Below, piece after piece: positions 1,927 to 22,665 of a DNA stretch of 25,915 nt (positions are counted from its first letter, which is position 1; every line of letters starts with the position of its first letter). Origin of the DNA: a virus. Its lineage: Duplodnaviria; Heunggongvirae; Uroviricota; Caudoviricetes. Below the pieces are notes generated by a model. That model saw only the letters and a program-made list of their open reading frames with translations. It was not told the origin of the DNA and searched no databases. Where the stretch lies: IMG/VR virus record IMGVR_UViG_2671180841_000012, positions 1-25,915 of that record; one strand, given 5' to 3'. The position numbers were made by a program, and so were the translations under genes.

Positions 1927-2423
1927 CAGTGATGACGCTCAATCTCGTCGAAAAACAGCCAGCAACTATGCGCCGGATAATTGGTAAGCATCTGGCCGTC
2001 CCTCGCTGGCAGGATACATGTGATTATTATAATCAGATGATGGAGCGCGAACGGTTAACGGTTTGCTTTCATGCGCAGTTAAAACAGCGTCACGCAACGA
2101 TGCGTTTTGAAGAAATGAACGACGTCGAACGTGAACGGCTGGTTTGTGCAATTGATGAATTGCGTGGGGCATTCTCAAAACGCCGTCAGGTTGGCGCAAG
2201 TGAGTATGCATATATTAGTTTTTTAACAGTCAGTCAGCGTCGTACTTTATTTATGCATGCCGGATTGACTGAAAAAGAATTCAACCAGCCATACTGGCGA
2301 ATTAATGAAGAGTCATGTTACTGGCGTGATGCTTTATTCCGTGCATTACGTGAATTATTCAGCCTGTTTGAGTATGCACCGACAATTCTGACGTCGGTAA
2401 AACCAGAGCAATATCTGCATTAA
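1923..2423 (+). CDS. B: Replication protein B (P2 gpB-like)
   Basis: 166-aa ORF, the same length as P2 B, in the P2 position between cox and A. Confidence 0.75.
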   Translation: MTVMTLNLVEKQPATMRRIIGKHLAVPRWQDTCDYYNQMMERERLTVCFHAQLKQRHATMRFEEMNDVERERLVCAIDELRGAFSKRRQVGASEYAYISFLTVSQRRTLFMHAGLTEKEFNQPYWRINEESCYWRDALFRALRELFSLFEYAPTILTSVKPEQYLH

Positions 2424-2486
2424 GTAATTAACCAGAGTTTTTAACGCACTTAATCGTGCGGGGCTTCTTTTTGCCTGGAGAAAGTC

Positions 2487-2711
2487 ATGCATACAGTTTC
2501 TGAAAATCAGTGCGGTAAATACGCATTACTGCTGCAACAGGCCAGAACCGAAGCACAGGCCGACGCTGCGACGCGCTTTTCTTCTCATCTTGACGCCATG
2601 ATTCGCCATATCACAAAGGCGGAGTTATCCCGCGTGGAGATAGTCGAGCTGCTCAGTCAGGAGTCGGAAAAATTTCACAATATCGGATTGTCTCGCGGGG
2701 AGGTGCTTTGA
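2487..2711 (+). CDS. Hypothetical early protein (P2 orf80 position)
   Basis: 74-aa ORF in the early operon; start preceded by GGAGAAAG; stop overlaps the next start (TGATG). Confidence 0.55.
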
Positions 2712-3013
2712 TGTCCTGTTCTCATTCAGTTGTATTACTGAATAACGCCTTAAAAATCGCCGTTATGAAAAATGGCGATTTGTCTCTTATTCAACTTTGT
2801 CTTGATAAAGAAAAACGCGACATAACTGAATCTGTTATCGCGATTTATCAGAATGAATTAAACCTCCTGTCTGATGTGGTCAATTTACTTGTTAAACGCG
2901 CTGTATTTCATAAGCAAATTTCATCCGTGGATGAACTGACAAAATTAACGACAGAAATCGCCAGCTATTGCGCTGATGAATTTAAGAAGCTGAACGACAA
3001 AAGGAGCTGGTAA
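2708..3013 (+). CDS. Hypothetical early protein (P2 orf81 position)
   Basis: 101-aa ORF, AT-rich, coupled to its neighbours; preceded by GGGGAGG. Confidence 0.55.
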
Positions 3014-3237
3014 TGCCGGACAACATAGATTTTATTCAGGAACAACAGGCTGAATTACTGGAGCGCCAGATTAACGCGGCAAGGGTAAAACATTGCGGTG
3101 TTTCTGCGCTGGTTTGCGAAGAGTGTGACGCGCCAATACCTGCTGCCCGTCGTGCAGCTTATCCGTCAGCCACGCGTTGTGTTTCCTGCCAGTCAGTCTT
3201 TGAAGCAAAAAACAAGCATTACCGGAGAATGGCATGA
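3013..3237 (+). CDS. DksA/TraR-type C4 zinc-finger protein (P2 orf82 position)
   Basis: 74-aa ORF with a CxxC...CxxC arrangement (C-EEC ... C-VSC); preceded by AAAAGGAG. Confidence 0.65.
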   Translation: MPDNIDFIQEQQAELLERQINAARVKHCGVSALVCEECDAPIPAARRAAYPSATRCVSCQSVFEAKNKHYRRMA

Positions 3238-3509
3238 GTATTCGTATCGAAATTGGCGAACGTTATGTCGTTACCAGTGACAGCTTTCAGTTTATTCTCC
3301 ACGAGAAAAAGAGAGCGGAAAGCGGTAAAAACGCCGGTCAGGAATGGCTGGCGGTGGTTGGTTATTACCCGAAATTAAGCCAGCTCGTTTCCGGCCTGAT
3401 GCATCACGATATTCTGACCGGAAGCGCAAAGTCTTTTGCTGATTTAAACGCGCAGGTTGAGCAACTCAGCAAGCGTTGTTCTGAGGCTTTTGGCTCATAT
3501 GGCCGTTAA
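3234..3509 (+). CDS. Hypothetical early protein (P2 orf83 position)
   Basis: 91-aa ORF; stop overlaps the start of A. Confidence 0.55.
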   Translation: MSIRIEIGERYVVTSDSFQFILHEKKRAESGKNAGQEWLAVVGYYPKLSQLVSGLMHHDILTGSAKSFADLNAQVEQLSKRCSEAFGSYGR

Positions 3510-5775
3510 AGCCTCCGGGCGTTTTGTCCCTCCGTCAGCATTTGCCGCAGGCACCGGTAAGGCGTTTACCGGTGCTTATGCATGGAACGCGCCACGCGAG
3601 GCTGTCGGGCGCGAAAGACCTCTTACACGTGACGAGATGCGTCAGGTGCAAGGTGTTTTATCCACGATTAACCGCCTGCCTTACTTTTTGCGCTCGCTGT
3701 TTACTTCACGCTATGACTACATCCGGCGCAATAAAAGCCCGGTGCACGGGTTTTATTTCCTCACATCCACTTTTCAGCGTCGTTTATGGCCGCGCATTGA
3801 GCGTGTGAATCAGCGCCATGAAATGAACACCGACGCGTCGATGCTGTTTCTGGCAGAGCGTGACCACTATGCGCGCCTGCCGGGAATGAATGACAAGGAG
3901 CTGAAAAAGTTTGCCGCCCGTATCTCATCGCAGCTTTTCATGATGTATGAGGAACTCAGCGATGCCTGGGTGGATGCGCATGGCGAGAAAGAATCGCTGT
4001 TTACGGATGAGGCGCAGGCTCACCTCTATGGTCATGTTGCTGGCGCTGCACGTGCTTTCAATATTTCCCCTCTCTACTGGAAAAAATACCGTAAAGGACA
4101 GATGACCACGAGGCAGGCATATTCTGCCATTGCCCGTCTGTTTAACGATGAGTGGTGGACTCATCAGCTTAAAGGCCAGCGTATGCGCTGGCATGAAGCG
4201 TTACTGATAGCTGTCGGGGAGGTCAATAAAGACCGTTCTCCTTATGCCAGTAAACATGCCATTCGTGATGTGCGTGCGCGCCGCCAGGCAAATCTGGAAT
4301 TTCTTAAATCGTGTGACCTTGAAAACAGGGAAACCGGCGAGCGCATCGACCTTATCAGTAAGGTGATGGGCAGTATTTCTAATCCTGAAATTCGCCGGAT
4401 GGAGCTGATGAACACCATTGCCGGTATTGAGCGTTACGCCGCCGCAGAGGGTGATGTGGGGATGTTTATCACGCTGACCGCGCCGTCAAAGTATCACCCG
4501 GCACGTCAGGTCGGAAAAGGCGAAAGTAAAACCGTCCAGCTTAATCACGGCTGGAATGATGAGGCATTTAATCCAAAGGATGCGCAGCGATATCTCTGCC
4601 GTATCTGGAGCCTGATGCGCACGGCATTCAAGGATAATGACTTACAGGTCTACGGTTTGCGTGTCGTCGAGCCACACCACGACGGAACGCCGCACTGGCA
4701 TATGATGCTTTTTTGTAATCCACGCCAGCGTAACCAGATTATTGAAATCATGCGTCGCTATGCGCTCAAAGAGGATGGCGACGAAAGAGGAGCCGCGCGA
4801 AACCGTTTTCAGGCAAAACACCTTAACCGGGGCGGTGCTGCGGGATATATCGCGAAATACATCTCAAAAAACATCGACGGCTATGCACTGGATGGTCAGC
4901 TCGATAATGATACCGGTAGGCCGCTGAAAGATACTGCGGCGGCTGTTACCGCATGGGCATCAACGTGGCGCATCCCGCAATTTAAAACGGTTGGCCTGCC
5001 GACAATGGGAGCTTACCGTGAGCTACGTAAATTGCCTCGCGGCGTCAGCATTGCTGATGAATTTGACGAACGCGTGGAGGCTGCACGCGCCGCCGCAGAC
5101 AGTGGCGATTTTGCGCTGTATATCAGCGCGCAGGGCGGGGCAAATGTCCCGCGCGATTGTCAGACTGTCAGGGTCGCCCGTAGCCCGTCGGATGACGTTA
5201 ACGAATACGAGGAAGAAGTCGAGAGAGTGGTCGGCATTTACGCGCCGCATCTCGGCGCGCGTCATATTCATATCACCAGAACGACGGACTGGCGCATTGT
5301 GCCGAAAGTTCCGGTCGTTGAGCCTTTGACTTTAAAAAGCGGCATCGCCGCGCCTCGGAGTCCTGTCAATAACTGTGGAAAGCTCACCGGTGGTGATACT
5401 TCGTTACCGGCTCCCACACCTTCTGAGCACGCCGCAGCAGTGCTTAATCTGGTAGATGACGGTGTTATCGAATGGAGTGACCCGGAGGTCGTGATGGCGC
5501 TCAGGGGCGCATTAAAACACGGACTGAGAACACCAAATCGTCAGCAAAGAAACGGAAGCCCGTTAAAACCACATGAAATTGCACCATCGGCCAGACTGAC
5601 CCGGTCGGAAAGAATGCAAATTACCCGTATCCGCGTTGACCTCGCTCAGAACGGTATCAGGCCGCAACGATGGGAGCTTGAGGCGCTGGCGCGTGGCGCG
5701 ACCGTAAATTATGACGGGAAAAAATTCACGTATCCGGTTGCTGATGAGTGGCCGGGGTTCTCGTTACCCATTTGA
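3499..5775 (+). CDS. A: Replication initiator A (rolling-circle, P2 gpA-like)
   Basis: Long ORF 3457..5775; start placed at the Met of MAVKASGRFVPP (3499), which overlaps the upstream stop; contains the HHDGTPHWHMM and YIAKYISKN motifs of rolling-circle initiators. In P2 the origin lies inside A; not located here. Confidence 0.88.
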   Translation: MAVKASGRFVPPSAFAAGTGKAFTGAYAWNAPREAVGRERPLTRDEMRQVQGVLSTINRLPYFLRSLFTSRYDYIRRNKSPVHGFYFLTSTFQRRLWPRIERVNQRHEMNTDASMLFLAERDHYARLPGMNDKELKKFAARISSQLFMMYEELSDAWVDAHGEKESLFTDEAQAHLYGHVAGAARAFNISPLYWKKYRKGQMTTRQAYSAIARLFNDEWWTHQLKGQRMRWHEALLIAVGEVNKDRSPYASKHAIRDVRARRQANLEFLKSCDLENRETGERIDLISKVMGSISNPEIRRMELMNTIAGIERYAAAEGDVGMFITLTAPSKYHPARQVGKGESKTVQLNHGWNDEAFNPKDAQRYLCRIWSLMRTAFKDNDLQVYGLRVVEPHHDGTPHWHMMLFCNPRQRNQIIEIMRRYALKEDGDERGAARNRFQAKHLNRGGAAGYIAKYISKNIDGYALDGQLDNDTGRPLKDTAAAVTAWASTWRIPQFKTVGLPTMGAYRELRKLPRGVSIADEFDERVEAARAAADSGDFALYISAQGGANVPRDCQTVRVARSPSDDVNEYEEEVERVVGIYAPHLGARHIHITRTTDWRIVPKVPVVEPLTLKSGIAAPRSPVNNCGKLTGGDTSLPAPTPSEHAAAVLNLVDDGVIEWSDPEVVMALRGALKHGLRTPNRQQRNGSPLKPHEIAPSARLTRSERMQITRIRVDLAQNGIRPQRWELEALARGATVNYDGKKFTYPVADEWPGFSLPI

Positions 5776-17997: not shown

Positions 17998-18601
17998 TTC
18001 GCGACTGCTGCCGACCGGCTCATCACTGCTTGAAGTTGCCGCCGCAAAAGCCTGTGCGGAAATTGAAAAAACGCCGGTCAGTATTCGTGAGCTGTGGAAC
18101 CCGGACACCTGCCCGGCAAATCTGCTGCCGTGGCTGGCGTGGTCATTTTCGGTTGACCGCTGGGATGATAAATGGCCGGAAGCGACAAAACGCGCTGTTA
18201 TCCGCGATGCGTATTTCATTCACTGCCATAAGGGCACTATAGGCGCAATCCGGCGTGTGGTGGAGCCGCTCGGCTATCTGATTGAGGTGAGGGAGTGGTG
18301 GCAGCTCAACGAGGAGCCGGGGACGTTCCGTATCGTTGTTGGCGTGCTTGAGCAGGGTATTACCGAAGAAATGTATCAGGAGCTGGAGCGCCTAGTTGCT
18401 GATGCAAAACCGGCAAGCCGCCATCTGACGGGACTGGCTATCAGTTTAAGTACAACCGGCAACATTTTTGCCGGTGCGGGATGCTATCACGGTGACGCCC
18501 TGACGGTTTATCCCTACACCCCGGAGGCCATTATTGTCGGAGGGGATTATTTCCCGGCCTCGGCCATTCATTTAATTGATAACCTGAGAGTAAACGCATG
18601 A
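17990..18601 (+). CDS. I: Baseplate protein I
   Basis: 203-aa ORF overlapping the J stop; P2 gpI position. Confidence 0.8.
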
Positions 18602-19758
18602 CAGTGAAATACTACGCCATTCTGACTAATCAGGGCGCAGCACGGCTGGCTAACGCGACGATGCTCGGCAGTAAGCTGAATCTGACGCAAATGGCCGTTG
18701 GTGATGCGAATGGTGTCTTGCCGACACCAGACCCGGCACAGACAAAACTGATTAACCAGAAACGCATCGCGCCGCTGAATCTTCTGAGTGTTGACCCGAA
18801 CAACCAGAGCCAGATTATTGCGGAGCAAATCATCCCTGAGAACGAGGGCGGATTCTGGATCCGTGAGATTGGGCTTTATGATGATGAAGGCGTACTCATT
18901 GCGGTGGCGAACTGCCCGGAAACGTACAAACCGCAGTTGCAGGAAGGCAGTGGTCGTACCCAGACTATCCGCATGATTCTGGTTGTCACGAATACCGAAG
19001 CTATCACGCTGAAAATCGACCCGTCGGTGGTACTGGCGACCCGTAAATACGTGGATGATGAAGTCCTGGAATTAAGGCTGTATGTGGATGACCAGATGAG
19101 AAACCACATTGCCGCACAGGATCCTCATACCCAGTATGCGCAGAAACATAATCCGACATTTACCGGAGAACCAAAAGCGCCGACGCCTGCCGCAGGAAAT
19201 AACACCACGCGGATTGCGACCACTGCGTTTGTTCAGGCCGCTATTACCGCTCTGATTAACGGTGCGCCAGCCACGCTGGACACACTGAAAGAAATTGCCG
19301 CAGCCATTAACAATGACCCGAAATTCAGTACCACCATTAACAATGCGCTGTCAGGTAAGCAGCCACTGGATGAGACGCTGACTCATTTGAGTGGAAAGGA
19401 TGTAGCTGGTCTTCTCGCATACCTTGGTTTGGGAGAAGCGGCAAAACGGAATGTGGGAACAGGGGAAAATCAGATACCTGATATGTCATCATATGCATCA
19501 GGTTCAGGCTGGCGAAAAATGCCAGATGGTTCAATTGAACAGTGGGGACGAATTCGTTTTCCTGGTGAACACGGGCCTGTATCCGCCAATGTTTCATTCC
19601 CGATTCCATTTACACAGACACCGGGCATTGTAATTGTGTGCGATGGTGGTTTCGGGGGCGGGAATATGTGGGGGGCGACCAACTGGAGCACTACCGGCTT
19701 CATAGCTCACTGCAATTATGGTCTTGAAGGTGGTGCGTTTTTCGCTAAGGGCTGGTAA
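18598..19758 (+). CDS. H: Tail fibre protein H (constant N-terminal part fused to invertible C-terminal variable part)
   Basis: 386-aa ORF; the N-terminal ~275 residues resemble the P2-type fibre shaft (MAVGDANG...[20 protein letters not shown]); the C-terminal ~110 residues lie beyond the crossover site at 19412-19437. Confidence 0.85.
19412..19437. repeat. hix/gix-like recombination site inside H (proximal end of invertible segment)
   Basis: TTCTCGCATACC-TT-GGTTTGGGAGAA: two 12-bp half-sites in inverted orientation around a 2-bp core (10 of 12 symmetric); 19421-19437 is the exact reverse complement of 21237-21253. Confidence 0.7.
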
Positions 19759-20201
19759 TGATGAAATATCTGTACGTAAACAACCTGGCATATCCTTACG
19801 AACTTCAGTCTCTTTATGTTGAAAAAGGTGAATGGCCTGAAGAAAAAGGTGTTGATATAGACGAAGTAATTTTCAGGGAATATTTCTATGACACACCACC
19901 AGAAGGAAAATACAGATGTGTTGGAGAAGATGGACTGCCTGCATGGGCAGATATTCCTCCACCAACACGTGAAGAACAAATTGCATCAGCCGAAACTAAA
20001 AAGCAGCAATTGATTAATCAGGCCAACGATTATATGAACAGTAGACAATGGGTTGGTAAAGCGGCTATTGGTCGTCTGAAAGGTGAGGAACTGGCGCAAT
20101 ATAATTTGTGGCTGGATTATCTGGACGCACTGGAGCTGGTCGATACTTCCAGTGCACCAGATATTGAATGGCCTACTCCTCCGGCAGTTCAGGCCAGATG
20201 A
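19758..20201 (+). CDS. G: Tail fibre assembly chaperone G
   Basis: 147-aa ORF overlapping the H stop (TAATG); C-terminal motif LDYLDA...DTSSAPDIEWP is shared with the minus-strand paralog. Confidence 0.8.
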   Translation: MMKYLYVNNLAYPYELQSLYVEKGEWPEEKGVDIDEVIFREYFYDTPPEGKYRCVGEDGLPAWADIPPPTREEQIASAETKKQQLINQANDYMNSRQWVGKAAIGRLKGEELAQYNLWLDYLDALELVDTSSAPDIEWPTPPAVQAR

Positions 20202-20784
20202 CATCCGGCGCGGTGCTGGTATCTGTTGCCGTCACCGCGTCAATGTAATCCAGCACCGTGTTAAGTCGGCTGGTTTCTGCCTGCGTCAGATTCCGTCCGG
20301 CCCGTAATTTCAGTTGAATCAGACTGATGGAAGCCATTGCAGTATCAATCAGCGACTGGCGTTGTGCTTCTGCTGCATCTACTGCGGCGCTATGCTGTGC
20401 ATCGGTATCCGTCACCCATTTCTCACCATCCCATTTATCGTATGGTGTTAACGGGGCGATAGTGGTTGTATTATCAGGGTAATCACCCGGAGCTGTGATT
20501 TCTTTTGATTCTCCTGTTTCGGTGCTAAAGACGATTTCACCGCGATGGTCTGGCACATATTCCCATGAGTTAAAATCTGCAGAACGGCAGATTGCATAAC
20601 CAGCCTTATGTGTAACTGGTGCATCTAAACAAGAACATGCCGGGATACCGACGCCAACCGTAAGATATTCAGTTGATGTGGAAATATATTCCCGCGTTTC
20701 TCCGTTGTAGTTGTAAACGGTAATGAAGCCAGCCTCTGTGGCAAATCCGTTTTCATCCAAAGTGATTTTTTTTGTGGTCATCAT
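20173..20784 (-). CDS. Alternative tail fibre assembly chaperone (G')
   Basis: 203-aa minus-strand ORF convergent with G, 3' ends overlapping by 29 bp; C-terminal LDYIDA...DTSTAPDVIWP marks it as a paralog of G. Confidence 0.75.
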   Translation of the reverse strand: MMTTKKITLDENGFATEAGFITVYNYNGETREYISTSTEYLTVGVGIPACSCLDAPVTHKAGYAICRSADFNSWEYVPDHRGEIVFSTETGESKEITAPGDYPDNTTTIAPLTPYDKWDGEKWVTDTDAQHSAAVDAAEAQRQSLIDTAMASISLIQLKLRAGRNLTQAETSRLNTVLDYIDAVTATDTSTAPDVIWPELPEE

Positions 20785-21257
20785 GCTGCCCTTACAATGT
20801 AGTTAAATGCAATGTTACGTGGCCTTGTTTCTGCTGATGTTCTTGCACTCCTGGATAAATCAAGTGTCACACCATAGTAACTAAATGCATTACCAGTTGA
20901 TGGAGCGGCATATTTAACCCCAGAACTAGAACCAACATTAAAAACTCCAGATGCTGAGGAAGCTGACCCCATAGTGTTATCAATCAGAGAACCCGTAACA
21001 TTTTGCATAGCGTCAAGTTGTTCGCTTAATAAAGCGCGTCCACTATCAACATCACGCCCGTCATCCCAGCCACGAATAAATTCACCTCGTAAATCAGGCA
21101 ATTTATTTGTCGGATAAGCCTTTGCCAGTTCCGGGTATTCTTCAGCAGAAAAAAACGCACCGTTGCATTTCAGCCAGCCTGTTGGCGGAGTGGTGGAAGG
21201 CCACGGAACAGGCACGCCAACGGGTAATGCCGAACCTTCTCCCAAACCAAGGTATAA
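20781..21257 (-). CDS. Silent alternative tail-fibre C-terminal cassette (Hv')
   Basis: Minus-strand reading frame ending at 20781 that enters at the distal crossover site with LYLGLGEGSALPVG..., parallel to H's [10 protein letters not shown]. The frame is the same relative to the core in both sites, so inversion would fuse H's constant part in frame. The track ORF runs on to 21434 but has no credible start there. Confidence 0.65.
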   Translation of the reverse strand, partial: LYLGLGEGSALPVGVPVPWPSTTPPTGWLKCNGAFFSAEEYPELAKAYPTNKLPDLRGEFIRGWDDGRDVDSGRALLSEQLDAMQNVTGSLIDNTMGSASSASGVFNVGSSSGVKYAAPSTGNAFSYYGVTLDLSRSARTSAETRPRNIAFNYIVRAA

Positions 21258-21262
21258 CAACA
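21237..21262. repeat. hix/gix-like recombination site (distal end of invertible segment)
   Basis: TTCTCCCAAACC-AA-GGTATAACAACA: left half-site and core are the exact inverted copy of the site in H; the right half-site is degenerate (about 6 of 12). Confidence 0.65.
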
Positions 21263-21415
21263 AATGACCAGAATACGGAATTGCAGCGTAACGCGCTGGA
21301 GTGCGCAGGATGTGAGCTGATTTTTGATATTGGCCTGTCCACGCTCTATAAAAAATTCCCCTCATCAGCGACAAAGAATAAATTGTGTCATCCCTTAGCC
21401 AACCGGGACAAATAG
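21251..21415 (+). pseudogene. Remnant of a Gin/Hin/Cin/Pin-family serine DNA invertase
   Basis: Plus-strand frame next to the distal site reads TNDQNTELQRNALECAGCELIF then jumps to DIGLSTLYKKFPSS...; these correspond to the N-terminal residues and the C-terminal DNA-binding end of Gin/Hin as I recall them. No start codon, no catalytic Ser (RVS absent), and ~140 internal codons missing. Confidence 0.7.
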
Positions 21416-21474
21416 CCTGACATCTCCGGCACAACTGAAAATATCACTCACCCATTAACCACGGAGTTAAACGG

Positions 21475-22665
21475 ATGAGTGACTATCATCACGGCGTGCA
21501 GGTGCTGGAGATTAACGACGGCACCCGTGTCATTTCCACCGTATCCACTGCCATTGTTGGCATGGTCTGCACGGCCAGCGATGCGGATGCGGAAACCTTC
21601 CCCCTCAATAAACCGGTGCTGATTACCAATGTGCAGAGCGCAATTGCAAAGGCCGGTAAAAAAGGCACGCTGGCGGCATCGTTGCAGGCTATCGCCGACC
21701 AGTCAAAACCGGTCACCGTTGTTGTGCGCGTGGAGGACGGCACCGGCGACGACGAAGAAACGAAACTTGCGCAGACCGTTTCCAATATCATCGGCACCAC
21801 TGACGAAAACGGTCAGTACACCGGACTGAAAGCCCTGCTGGCGGCAGAGTCGGTAACCGGTGTTAAACCGCGTATTCTTGGTGTGCCGGGACTGGATACC
21901 AAAGAGGTGGCTGTAGCACTAGCATCCGTCTGTCAGAAGCTGCGCGCTTTCGGGTATATCAGCGCATGGGGCTGTAAGACCATTTCCGAGGTGAAAGCCT
22001 ACCGCCAGAATTTCAGCCAGCGTGAGCTGATGGTCATCTGGCCGGATTTCCTCGCATGGGATACGGTCACCAGTACCACCGCCACCGCGTATGCCACCGC
22101 TCGTGCGCTGGGGCTGCGCGCTAAAATCGACCAGGAGCAGGGCTGGCATAAAACGCTGTCCAACGTCGGGGTGAACGGTGTTACCGGCATCAGCGCATCT
22201 GTATTCTGGGATTTGCAGGAGTCCGGCACCGATGCTGACCTGCTTAACGAGTCAGGCGTCACTACGCTGATTCGCCGCGACGGTTTCCGCTTCTGGGGTA
22301 ACCGTACCTGCTCTGATGACCCACTGTTTCTCTTTGAAAACTACACCCGTACCGCGCAGGTGCTGGCCGACACGATAGCTGAGGCGCACATGTGGGCGGT
22401 GGACAAGCCCATCACCGCAACGCTGATTCGCGACATCGTTGACGGCATCAATGCCAAATTCCGTGAGCTGAAAACAAACGGCTATATCGTGGATGGCTCA
22501 TGCTGGTTCAGCGAAGAATCCAACGATGCGGAAACCCTCAAGGCCGGAAAACTGTATATCGACTACGACTATACACCGGTGCCTCCTCTCGAAAACCTGA
22601 CCCTGCGCCAGCGTATTACCGATAAATACCTGGCGAATCTGGTCACCTCGGTTAACAGCAATTAA
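21475..22665 (+). CDS. FI: Tail sheath protein FI
   Basis: 396-aa ORF preceded by GGAG. Confidence 0.88.
   Translation: MSDYHHGVQVLEINDGTRVISTVSTAIVGMVCTASDADAETFPLNKPVLITNVQSAIAKAGKKGTLAASLQAIADQSKPVTVVVRVEDGTGDDEETKLAQTVSNIIGTTDENGQYTGLKALLAAESVTGVKPRILGVPGLDTKEVAVALASVCQKLRAFGYISAWGCKTISEVKAYRQNFSQRELMVIWPDFLAWDTVTSTTATAYATARALGLRAKIDQEQGWHKTLSNVGVNGVTGISASVFWDLQESGTDADLLNESGVTTLIRRDGFRFWGNRTCSDDPLFLFENYTRTAQVLADTIAEAHMWAVDKPITATLIRDIVDGINAKFRELKTNGYIVDGSCWFSEESNDAETLKAGKLYIDYDYTPVPPLENLTLRQRITDKYLANLVTSVNSN

What the first reader, a model, noticed from the sequence alone, without database searches (positions are those of the whole stretch)
21251..21415. Serine invertase reduced to a ~50-codon remnant, so the fibre switch is probably locked unless complemented in trans
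The frame next to the distal site keeps only an N-terminal fragment (TNDQNTELQRNALECAGCE) and the C-terminal end (IFDIGLSTLYKKFPSS) of a Gin/Hin-family invertase; the start codon, catalytic serine region and ~140 internal codons are gone. Both retained edges of the deletion carry an I-F motif, suggesting deletion between short repeats. The right half of the distal crossover site is also degenerate. Gin, Cin, Pin and Hin are known to cross-complement, so a resident invertase elsewhere in the genome (for example e14 Pin) could still flip the segment.
Basis: partly seen in the sequence, partly recalled or inferred. Interest (0 to 1): 0.6.

Follow-up and report, generated by a model that had tools for sequence, protein, structure and literature searches.

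The report
Dead prophage invertase, switch still flips
A P2-like E. coli prophage has lost its own tail-fibre invertase to a real 411-bp internal deletion, but the extra loss of the gene's start is an assembly gap, and the fibre switch still flips in identical prophages, so this is an ordinary, already annotated pseudogene.

Summary
The remnant at 21251-21415 is a real fragment of a Gin/Hin-family invertase (E 6e-13 to Gin). It combines one real lesion and one artefact.

Real: a 411-bp in-frame deletion between the 12-bp direct repeats GCTGATTTTTGA. It leaves a 60-codon ORF. The same junction is in 25 of 5,426 complete E. coli genomes, and the exact 60-aa product is on record on 434 contigs.

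Artefact: the loss of the start codon, the Ser9 codon and the outer half of the distal crossover site. The window comes from draft contig JYLV01000085.1. Window bases 21256-21257 ("AA") are "NN" in that record. The five bases before them (GGTAT) match the flipped-orientation junction, not the expected flank. Two otherwise 100%-identical prophages (SRR3982153 and MNCRE44) carry the missing ~90 nt intact.

The switch is not locked. MNCRE44 has the same prophage and the same dead allele with the 1.8-kb segment inverted. In a second dead-allele lineage, 12 genomes with identical flanks split 8:4 between the two orientations. Both crossover sites and the stretch homologous to the 65-bp Fis enhancer survive the deletion. 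Intact paralogues are common (83% of genomes), and one co-resides with the dead allele in strain AF51. I infer inversion in trans.

Known biology; low interest.

The parts
18598..19758 (+). Tail-fibre gene H (386 aa) in the current orientation: constant N-terminal part fused at the proximal site to variable C-terminus A
   Evidence: ORF. Pfam Phage_tail_fib 2e-62 and Gp53-like_C. The protein equals KJI17130.1/WP_045152019.1 of E. coli.
19412..19437 (+). Proximal 26-bp crossover site TTCTCGCATACC TT GGTTTGGGAGAA, with core TT at 19424-19425
   Evidence: Inverted repeat I1. Site located. The inversion breakpoint against MNCRE44 falls here.
19424..21250 (.). Invertible segment of about 1.83 kb. 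It carries C-terminus A plus its assembly protein on the + strand and C-terminus B plus its assembly protein on the - strand
   Evidence: MNCRE44 has window 19424-21255 inverted with 1 mismatch in 1,832 nt, between flanks that are 100% identical.
19758..20201 (+). Tail-fibre assembly protein for fibre A (147 aa)
   Evidence: Pfam Caudo_TAP 3e-33.
20173..20784 (-). Tail-fibre assembly protein for fibre B (203 aa)
   Evidence: Pfam Caudo_TAP 1.4e-32.
20781..21250 (-). Start-less alternative fibre C-terminus B (collar domain), expressed only after inversion. The listed ORF 20781-21434 is a spurious 5' extension that runs antisense through the invertase remnant
   Evidence: Pfam Collar 1.1e-14. 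In MNCRE44 this part is fused to the H constant region as a 431-aa protein.
21237..21250 (+). Distal crossover site, inner half TTCTCCCAAACC plus core AA. The genuine outer half (CGTTTAAGAAAA in L009 and MNCRE44) is missing from the window
21251..21257 (.). Assembly join. GGTAT is the flipped-orientation flank (reverse complement of ATACC at 19419-19423). The next two bases are NN in the source record and are given as AA in the window
   Evidence: NN versus AA. (92 nt here in L009). (the alignment with flipped MNCRE44 runs through GGTAT).
21258..21327 (+). Invertase ORF nt 26-95 (codons 9 in part to 32). It contains the stretch homologous to the 65-bp Fis-dependent recombinational enhancer of hin (ORF nt 22-86, window up to 21318)
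   Evidence: Alignment with Salmonella hin and Mu gin. The enhancer is 65 bp long with ATTTA/TAATG at its centre (PMC3798978).
21316..21327 (+). GCTGATTTTTGA, the single surviving copy of the 12-bp direct repeat at the 411-bp deletion junction
   Evidence: A junction-specific 44-nt probe hits 25 of 5,426 complete genomes.
21328..21415 (+). Last 29 codons plus stop of the invertase (third helix of the helix-turn-helix domain and the tail)
   Evidence: Matches Gin 164-182 and the Hin DNA-binding domain. Identical to the 3' ends of intact genes.
21475..22665 (+). Tail sheath gene FI. Homology to P2 resumes at about 21395, in the region upstream of FI that P2's record annotates as the F-operon promoter

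Best explanation
The window is the late region of a P2-like (Peduovirus) prophage of E. coli. It carries a Mu G / P1 C-type invertible tail-fibre segment. The prophage's own Gin-family serine invertase was destroyed by one event: a 411-bp in-frame deletion between two 12-bp direct repeats, probably by replication slippage or short-homology recombination. This left a 60-codon ORF holding residues 1-31 and 169-197. That product lacks nearly all of the catalytic domain, the dimerisation helix and most of the DNA-binding domain.

The further truncation seen in the window (no ATG, no Ser9, odd outer half-site) is not biological. It is a scaffold join in the draft assembly, NN rendered as AA. The left contig ran 5 nt into the flipped-orientation junction, and about 90 nt were dropped.

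The real deletion spares everything needed in cis: both 26-bp crossover sites, their native spacing, and the 5' coding stretch homologous to the Fis-bound enhancer of hin. The segment therefore remains a substrate for related invertases made elsewhere in the cell. I infer that it keeps switching between two intact fibre and chaperone sets.

Shown here: the anatomy, the NN, the deletion and its spread, the orientation polymorphism, and the co-residence of an intact paralogue in one dead-allele genome. Inferred: that the inversions were catalysed in trans by such paralogues, and that the enhancer homologue works.
For: 1. Remnant identity: Gin, E 5.9e-13; 95-100% DNA identity to intact genes on both sides of the junction.

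2. The internal deletion is real and widespread. The 12-nt repeat lies at ORF nt 84 and 495. The same junction is in LD27-1, Logan SRR3982153 and SRR30645643, two metagenome contigs and GCA_006937685.1. It is in 25 of 5,426 complete genomes. The exact 60-aa product is on 434 contigs. In every dead-allele locus read here, RefSeq annotates it as an incomplete pseudogene (and following).

3. The 5' loss is an artefact. The source record has NN where the window has AA, and these are the only two differences in 9,161 nt. L009 is 100% identical on both sides but has 92 nt there. MNCRE44 has flanks 100% identical and the full 5' region. GGTAT differs from the expected flank CGTTT at 2 of 5 positions but matches the flipped junction 5 of 5. 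The terminal 20 nt of the left part is an exact reverse complement of 19419-19438, as expected for a k=21 graph contig end. Other draft assemblies split this same piece off as 239-247-nt contigs.

4. Not locked. The segment is inverted in MNCRE44. AR_0137 and 005008 differ from Y5 by an exact 1,200-bp inversion between 99.9% identical flanks. Over 13 complete genomes the orientations split 8 to 5, and 12 of the 13 have identical 2,612-nt flanks.

5. Cis elements are kept. The alignment to hin places the 65-bp enhancer at ORF nt 22-86, and the deletion starts after nt 95 (PMC3798978).

6. Trans donors are plausible. The deleted 411-nt core matches 4,507 of 5,426 genomes, with a median of 2 places per genome. 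AF51 carries the dead allele and also a second P2-like prophage with an intact 197-aa invertase and near-identical sites. Published precedents are PinQ, PinR and PinE acting on the e14 P segment and Fin acting on the Salmonella H segment (PMC12529663).
Against: No reads of the source strain were available, so the artefact is inferred from the NN, from identical relatives and from the GGTAT signature, not seen directly. A real strain-specific deletion with two ambiguous base calls is not strictly excluded.

No intact invertase could be located in the source genome or in MNCRE44, because only the window and selected loci can be read.

The deletion may be recurrent. One allele (P0135, 'CERIF') has the junction in a CGG-type repeat copy. 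Some orientation differences could therefore predate independent deletions.

The enhancer assignment is by homology to hin. Fis binding was not tested.
Confidence: 0.8

Rival explanations
1. The prophage in this strain suffered two deletions, the second removing the outer half-site, the promoter and ATG, Ser9 and the first 4 nt of the enhancer. The enhancer would then sit 7 nt from the site centre, and the switch would be dead in cis and locked.
For: The window sequence as given. No other assembly is known to come from the same strain, so a private deletion cannot be formally excluded. Two N's could be ambiguous base calls rather than a gap.
Against: The junction sits exactly on NN in the source record. 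The junction sequence was found in none of the complete E. coli genomes, species-representative genomes or viral contigs searched. GGTAT cannot arise from the parental CGTTT by deletion, yet it equals the flipped junction. Two prophages identical over 5-9 kb have the region intact. This stretch is a known assembly break point.
Confidence: 0.07
2. The switch is locked in every dead-allele prophage. The two orientations seen among genomes reflect flipping before the deletion, followed by independent recurrences of the same repeat-mediated deletion, or by spread of the dead allele through homologous recombination into prophages of either orientation.
For: Deletion between 12-bp repeats can recur. 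Allele P0135 has a different repeat copy at the junction. The dead allele sits next to at least four different fibre cassette sets, which shows recombination or recurrence.
Against: Twelve genomes with identical 2.6-kb flanks and identical junctions split 8:4. MNCRE44 versus the window and L009 shows zero flank differences. This reading needs several identical deletions within near-clonal lineages, whereas trans inversion needs none. GGTAT in the JYLV contig is most simply read as a trace of flipped-orientation reads in that culture.
Confidence: 0.1
3. The inversions happen without any invertase, by RecA-dependent or replication-associated recombination between the short inverted repeats.
For: Inverted repeats flank the segment.
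Against: The genuine perfect repeat is only 15 nt (TTGGTTTGGGAGAAG), which from general knowledge is too short for efficient RecA recombination. The breakpoints coincide with canonical 26-bp invertase sites with a 2-bp core. An 8:5 split implies frequent switching.
Confidence: 0.03

Closest known systems
Invertase and invertible H-gene segment of P2-like phages and prophages (Escherichia phage pro483 ORF35; E. coli KW21, WCHEC005784)
   Same: Same locus between the fibre genes and sheath gene FI. Same crossover sites. 95-100% DNA identity to both retained parts of the remnant.
   Different: Those genes are intact at 594 nt (197 aa). Here 411 nt (residues 32-168) are deleted.
The 60-aa 'recombinase family protein' pseudogene of E. 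coli (LD27-1, MNCRE44, AR_0137, Y5 and 21 other complete genomes)
   Same: Identical deletion junction and identical 60-aa product. MNCRE44 carries the same prophage with flanks 100% identical.
   Different: Those records keep the ATG, Ser9 and the outer half-site. The window lacks them only because of the NN join. MNCRE44 has the segment in the opposite orientation.
Mu Gin / G segment and P1 Cin / C segment
   Same: Same architecture: a fibre constant part, an invertible cassette pair with chaperones, then the invertase just outside the distal site. The ATG lies about 67 nt from the site centre in both Mu and this family. 26-bp sites with a 2-bp core.
   Different: Different phage family (Peduovirus). 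The invertase is inactivated here.
Salmonella Hin and its 65-bp Fis enhancer inside the 5' coding region
   Same: The retained codons 8-29 align with the hin enhancer, whose centre ATTTA..TAATG covers the D-L-Q-R-N-A codons. Spacing from the site centre is 88 nt here and 97 nt in hin (PMC3798978).
   Different: Hin lies inside its invertible segment and controls a promoter. Enhancer function here is inferred, not tested.
Cross-acting invertases: PinQ, PinR and PinE on the e14 P segment; Fels-2 Fin on the H segment
   Same: An invertible segment flipped by invertases encoded elsewhere in the genome (PMC12529663).
   Different: In those cases the local invertase is still functional. Here the local gene is dead, so any switching depends entirely on foreign enzymes.

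Membership tests
Gin/Hin/Cin/Pin DNA invertases (small serine recombinases) | N-terminal catalytic motif with the nucleophilic serine (Y-x-R-V-S-T-x-x-Q; Ser9 in Gin) | tested here: not met
   The window starts at T10 (TNDQ), with no Ser codon and no ATG. In the identical prophages L009 and MNCRE44 the motif MLIGYVRVSTNDQ is present. Its absence from the window lies on an NN join.
Gin/Hin/Cin/Pin DNA invertases (small serine recombinases) | Complete resolvase-type catalytic domain (PF00239) and the E-helix | tested here: not met
   Pfam gives no hit on the 102-aa ORF. Only a weak precomputed PF00239 hit exists on the 60-aa form. Residues 32-168 are deleted. This is a pseudogene, not a functional member.
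Gin/Hin/Cin/Pin DNA invertases (small serine recombinases) | C-terminal helix-turn-helix DNA-binding domain (PF02796) | tested here: not met
   Only the last helix and the tail remain. They match Gin 164-182 and Hin DNA-binding domain residues 27-51.
Gin/Hin/Cin/Pin DNA invertases (small serine recombinases) | Descent from a family member, shown by sequence homology of what remains | tested here: met
   E 5.9e-13 to Gin. 95-100% DNA identity to intact 197-aa genes on both sides of the junction.
Invertase-driven invertible tail-fibre segment (Mu G / P1 C / e14 P type) | Two 26-bp crossover sites in inverted orientation with a 2-bp core | tested here: met
   The proximal site at 19412-19437 is complete. 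The distal inner half plus core lies at 21237-21250. The distal outer half is missing from the window but present in L009 and MNCRE44.
Invertase-driven invertible tail-fibre segment (Mu G / P1 C / e14 P type) | Alternative fibre C-termini and chaperones on opposite strands, with the constant part outside the segment | tested here: met
   Both fusion products are intact ORFs: 386 aa in the window and 431 aa in MNCRE44.
Invertase-driven invertible tail-fibre segment (Mu G / P1 C / e14 P type) | Both orientations actually occur | tested here: met
   MNCRE44 versus the window and L009. AR_0137-type lineage splits 8:5. These are comparisons between strains. Switching within one culture was not testable.
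Invertase-driven invertible tail-fibre segment (Mu G / P1 C / e14 P type) | Fis-dependent recombinational enhancer in cis | not testable with these tools
   The homologous 65-bp stretch is retained. Fis binding and stimulation need experiments.

The most novel reading that the evidence does not exclude
The 411-bp deletion allele is more than decay on its way out. Because the repeat-mediated deletion happens to spare both crossover sites and the enhancer embedded in the first 95 nt of the gene, it creates an 'orphan' host-range switch that relies on invertases of co-resident prophages. Fibre switching in one prophage then becomes coupled to the presence, and possibly the induction state, of another. 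The allele persists and spreads (25 complete genomes, at least four cassette contexts) because nothing is lost in the many hosts that carry paralogues.
Probability: 0.3. Interest if true: 0.4.

Novelty: new member of a known kind. Interest (0 to 1): 0.22.

Why it matters
The main value is as a caution. Invertible segments and multi-copy invertase genes are exactly where short-read assemblies break.

Biologically it is a tidy natural example. An invertase gene can die while the switch it served stays active, because the enhancer sits in the surviving 5' end and related invertases are common in E. coli. That affects how prophage host-range switches and 'pseudogene' calls are interpreted, but it follows from established cross-complementation among Gin, Cin, Pin, Hin, Fin and PinQ.

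Tried and rejected
1. Exact-pattern scans for the 5' junction CCAAACCAAGGTATAACAACAAATGACCAG in genome contigs and viral contigs found nothing. A shorter pattern, GGTATAACAACAAATGAC, gave two unrelated chance hits in viral contigs. No natural parent allele carries that sequence.

2. I first tried to explain GGTATAA as microhomology or filler at a real deletion, or as a recombination with a pseudo-site. I dropped this once the NN in the source record was found.

3. The T22 'P2' phage has a distal site CCAAGGTATGCGAGAA. I considered whether the source strain has that variant. It would equally imply a join that hides about 100 nt, and the identical prophages L009 and MNCRE44 have the CGTTTAAG version.

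4. The Mu and D108 records carry no enhancer annotation. Reviews and older papers on enhancer distance limits were not held, so the minimal-distance argument was left out.

5. A literature search for the JYLV and SRR accessions found nothing.

7. I could not find a way to search one named genome (MNCRE44 or the JYLV assembly) for an intact invertase. Only AF51 was shown to carry one, because it happened to appear.

8. A first SNP table was inflated by indel errors in GYB01. The other 12 genomes were identical.

Full report
**What is at the coordinates**

The window is the late region of a P2-like prophage. Reading left to right it holds:
- fibre gene H (18598-19758) and a fibre assembly gene (19758-20201);
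- on the opposite strand, a second assembly gene (20173-20784) and a start-less fibre C-terminus with a collar domain;
- then the sheath and tube genes.

A 20-nt perfect inverted repeat links 19419-19438 and 21236-21255. It marks two crossover sites.

The + frame at 21251-21415 reads TNDQNTELQRNALECAGCELIF|DIGLSTLYKKFPSS...*. It matches Gin residues 8-37 and 164-182 with E 5.9e-13, and it matches the Hin DNA-binding domain. The observed remnant is therefore real and far beyond chance. Pfam alone did not detect it.

**Two lesions, separated by comparison with intact relatives**

I aligned the region to intact loci in E. coli KW21 and phage pro483, and to E. coli LD27-1. The window differs in two ways.

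1. A 411-bp in-frame gap whose two edges carry the same GCTGATTTTTGA. In intact genes this 12-mer lies at ORF nt 84 and 495 and is the longest direct repeat in the gene. LD27-1 has the same gap but keeps its ATG and Ser9. Its product is a 60-aa protein, MLIGYVRVSTNDQNTELQRNALECAGCELIFDIGLSTLYKKFPSSATKNKLCHPLANRDK.

2. A gap of about 85 nt, seen only in the window. It runs from the central AA of the distal site to codon 9 of the invertase, with the junction CCAAACCAA-GGTAT-AA-CAACAAATG.

**The internal deletion is real and common**

- A 44-nt probe specific for the junction hits 25 of 5,426 complete E. coli genomes, each in one piece.
- The exact 60-aa product is recorded on 434 contigs, and variants on dozens more.
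- The allele occurs in Logan assemblies, metagenomes and NCBI drafts.
- In every dead-allele locus read here, RefSeq annotates it as an incomplete recombinase pseudogene.
- It sits beside at least four different fibre cassette sets.
- One allele (P0135) has the junction in a CGG-type repeat copy, which hints at recurrence.

**The 5' truncation is an assembly artefact**

An exact look-up of the H protein found two contigs.

- The first is NCBI GCA_000952385.1 contig JYLV01000085.1, from E. coli. It is the window's source. Over 9,161 nt it differs from the window at only two positions, window 21256-21257, which are NN in the record and AA in the window. The window has no N at all, so N's were evidently rendered as A.
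- The second is the Logan assembly of SRR3982153 (L009). It is 100% identical over 6,653 nt to the left and 2,416 nt to the right. In place of GGTAT+NN it has 92 nt: CGTTTAAGAAAATG...ATGCTTATTGGCTATGTCCGCGTGT. That stretch holds the natural outer half-site, the ATG and the Ser9 codon.

Complete genome MNCRE44 also has the 5' region intact, between flanks 100% identical to the window (1,654 nt and 3,686 nt).

The five bases GGTAT cannot come from the parental CGTTT by deletion. They are exactly the reverse complement of the H-constant flank (ATACC), which is the junction expected in the flipped orientation. The alignment with flipped MNCRE44 runs straight through them.

The last 20 nt before the NN are an exact reverse complement of 19419-19438. 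That is what a k=21 graph contig end looks like (k-1 = 20). This last point is my inference.

Other draft assemblies split this same stretch off as contigs of 239-247 nt that encode MTANWHHPRFLFRGSIMLIGYVRVSTNDQNT. So this is a habitual break point, lying between an invertible repeat and a multi-copy gene.

The junction was found nowhere else: not in the complete E. coli genomes, the species-representative genomes or the viral contigs.

**Cis elements survive the real deletion**

I fetched Salmonella hin and aligned it with Mu gin, the dead allele and an intact allele. The hin enhancer is 65 bp, has a Fis site at each end and has ATTTA/TAATG near its centre (PMC3798978). These motifs fall on the D-L-Q-R-N-A codons. 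By homology the enhancer covers ORF nt 22-86 here. The deletion leaves the sequence unchanged through nt 95.

The spacing from the site centre to the enhancer is 97 nt in hin (99 bp in the paper's wording) and 88 nt in L009. In the true locus, both sites, the spacing and the enhancer homologue are therefore native. Only the protein is gone.

If the window were taken literally, the enhancer would lose 4 nt and sit 7 nt from the site. That configuration rests on the NN join.

**The switch is not locked**

- MNCRE44 carries the same prophage and the same dead allele, with window 19424-21255 inverted and 1 mismatch in 1,832 nt. Both fusion proteins are intact: 386 aa in the window and 431 aa in MNCRE44.
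- In a second dead-allele lineage, AR_0137 and 005008 differ from Y5 by an exact 1,200-bp inversion between flanks that are 99.9% identical.
- Over 13 complete genomes of that lineage, eight have one orientation and five the other. Twelve of the 13 have identical 2,612-nt flanks.

The simplest reading is inversion after the invertase died.

**Where the enzyme could come from**

The 411-nt segment missing here matches 4,507 of 5,426 complete genomes (83%), with a median of two places per genome. Isolate AF51 carries the dead-allele prophage and also a second P2-like prophage. That second prophage has an intact 197-aa invertase and crossover sites that differ at one base.

Cross-action is established for this family: PinQ, PinR and PinE all invert the e14 P segment, Fin inverts the Salmonella H segment, and PinE inverts the H and G segments (PMC12529663). 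P2-like prophage segments are known to flip in culture (PMC4272514).

I could not locate an intact invertase in the source genome or in MNCRE44, so catalysis in trans is inferred rather than shown for those strains.

**Verdict**

The remnant is a real, common and already annotated pseudogene allele of a known invertase. The missing start codon, missing serine and degenerate site are artefacts of an N-filled join. 'Locked' is contradicted by the comparative data, while the idea of complementation in trans is supported. Nothing here lies outside known invertase biology, so interest is low. The modest point of note is that the deletion leaves an orphan but cis-complete switch.

Noticed in passing
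window 21256-21257: These two bases are NN in the source record (JYLV01000085.1) but AA in the window, and the window contains no N at all. Ambiguity codes were apparently converted to A, which can create false sequence at scaffold joins.
   Followed up: yes
window 25915 (end): By coordinate arithmetic, the window ends about 2 nt before the end of the 51,134-nt source contig, inside the tape-measure gene. The draft assembly breaks within the prophage, perhaps because a second P2-like prophage in the same genome shares this gene.
   Followed up: no
L016 (AR_0137) 2270-3469 versus L017 (Y5): A shorter, 1.2-kb invertible segment holds only one fibre assembly gene. In one orientation the 370-aa fibre gene has no assembly gene downstream on its strand. 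One inner half-site is the variant GGATTTGGAGAA.
   Followed up: partly
L004 (phage 'P2' of O157:H43 T22) 3380-3420: Its distal site is CCAAGGTATGCGAGAA followed by 16 extra nt before CGTTTATG. This makes a 26-bp exact inverted copy of the proximal site. The KW21, pro483 and L009 family lacks these 16 nt and uses the less symmetric outer half CGTTTA(A/T)GAAAA. Its invertase is annotated as only 164 aa.
   Followed up: no
protein P0132 (NCBI, 7,043-nt contig): A 137-aa predicted protein joins the first 56 residues of the sheath protein to the invertase upstream region and the 60-aa mini-invertase. It is either another misassembly at this locus or a real rearrangement.
   Followed up: no
window 20781-21434 (- strand): The 217-aa ORF listed here is a chance 5' extension (TTG start) of the silent fibre C-terminus, running antisense through the invertase remnant. 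The real coding part begins at the crossover site near 21250.
   Followed up: yes
L110 (NRZ95651) 4020-5244: An IS21-family element (ISEc12 istA/istB) lies directly downstream of the sheath gene where the other loci have the tube gene, so that copy of the dead-allele prophage appears disrupted.
   Followed up: no
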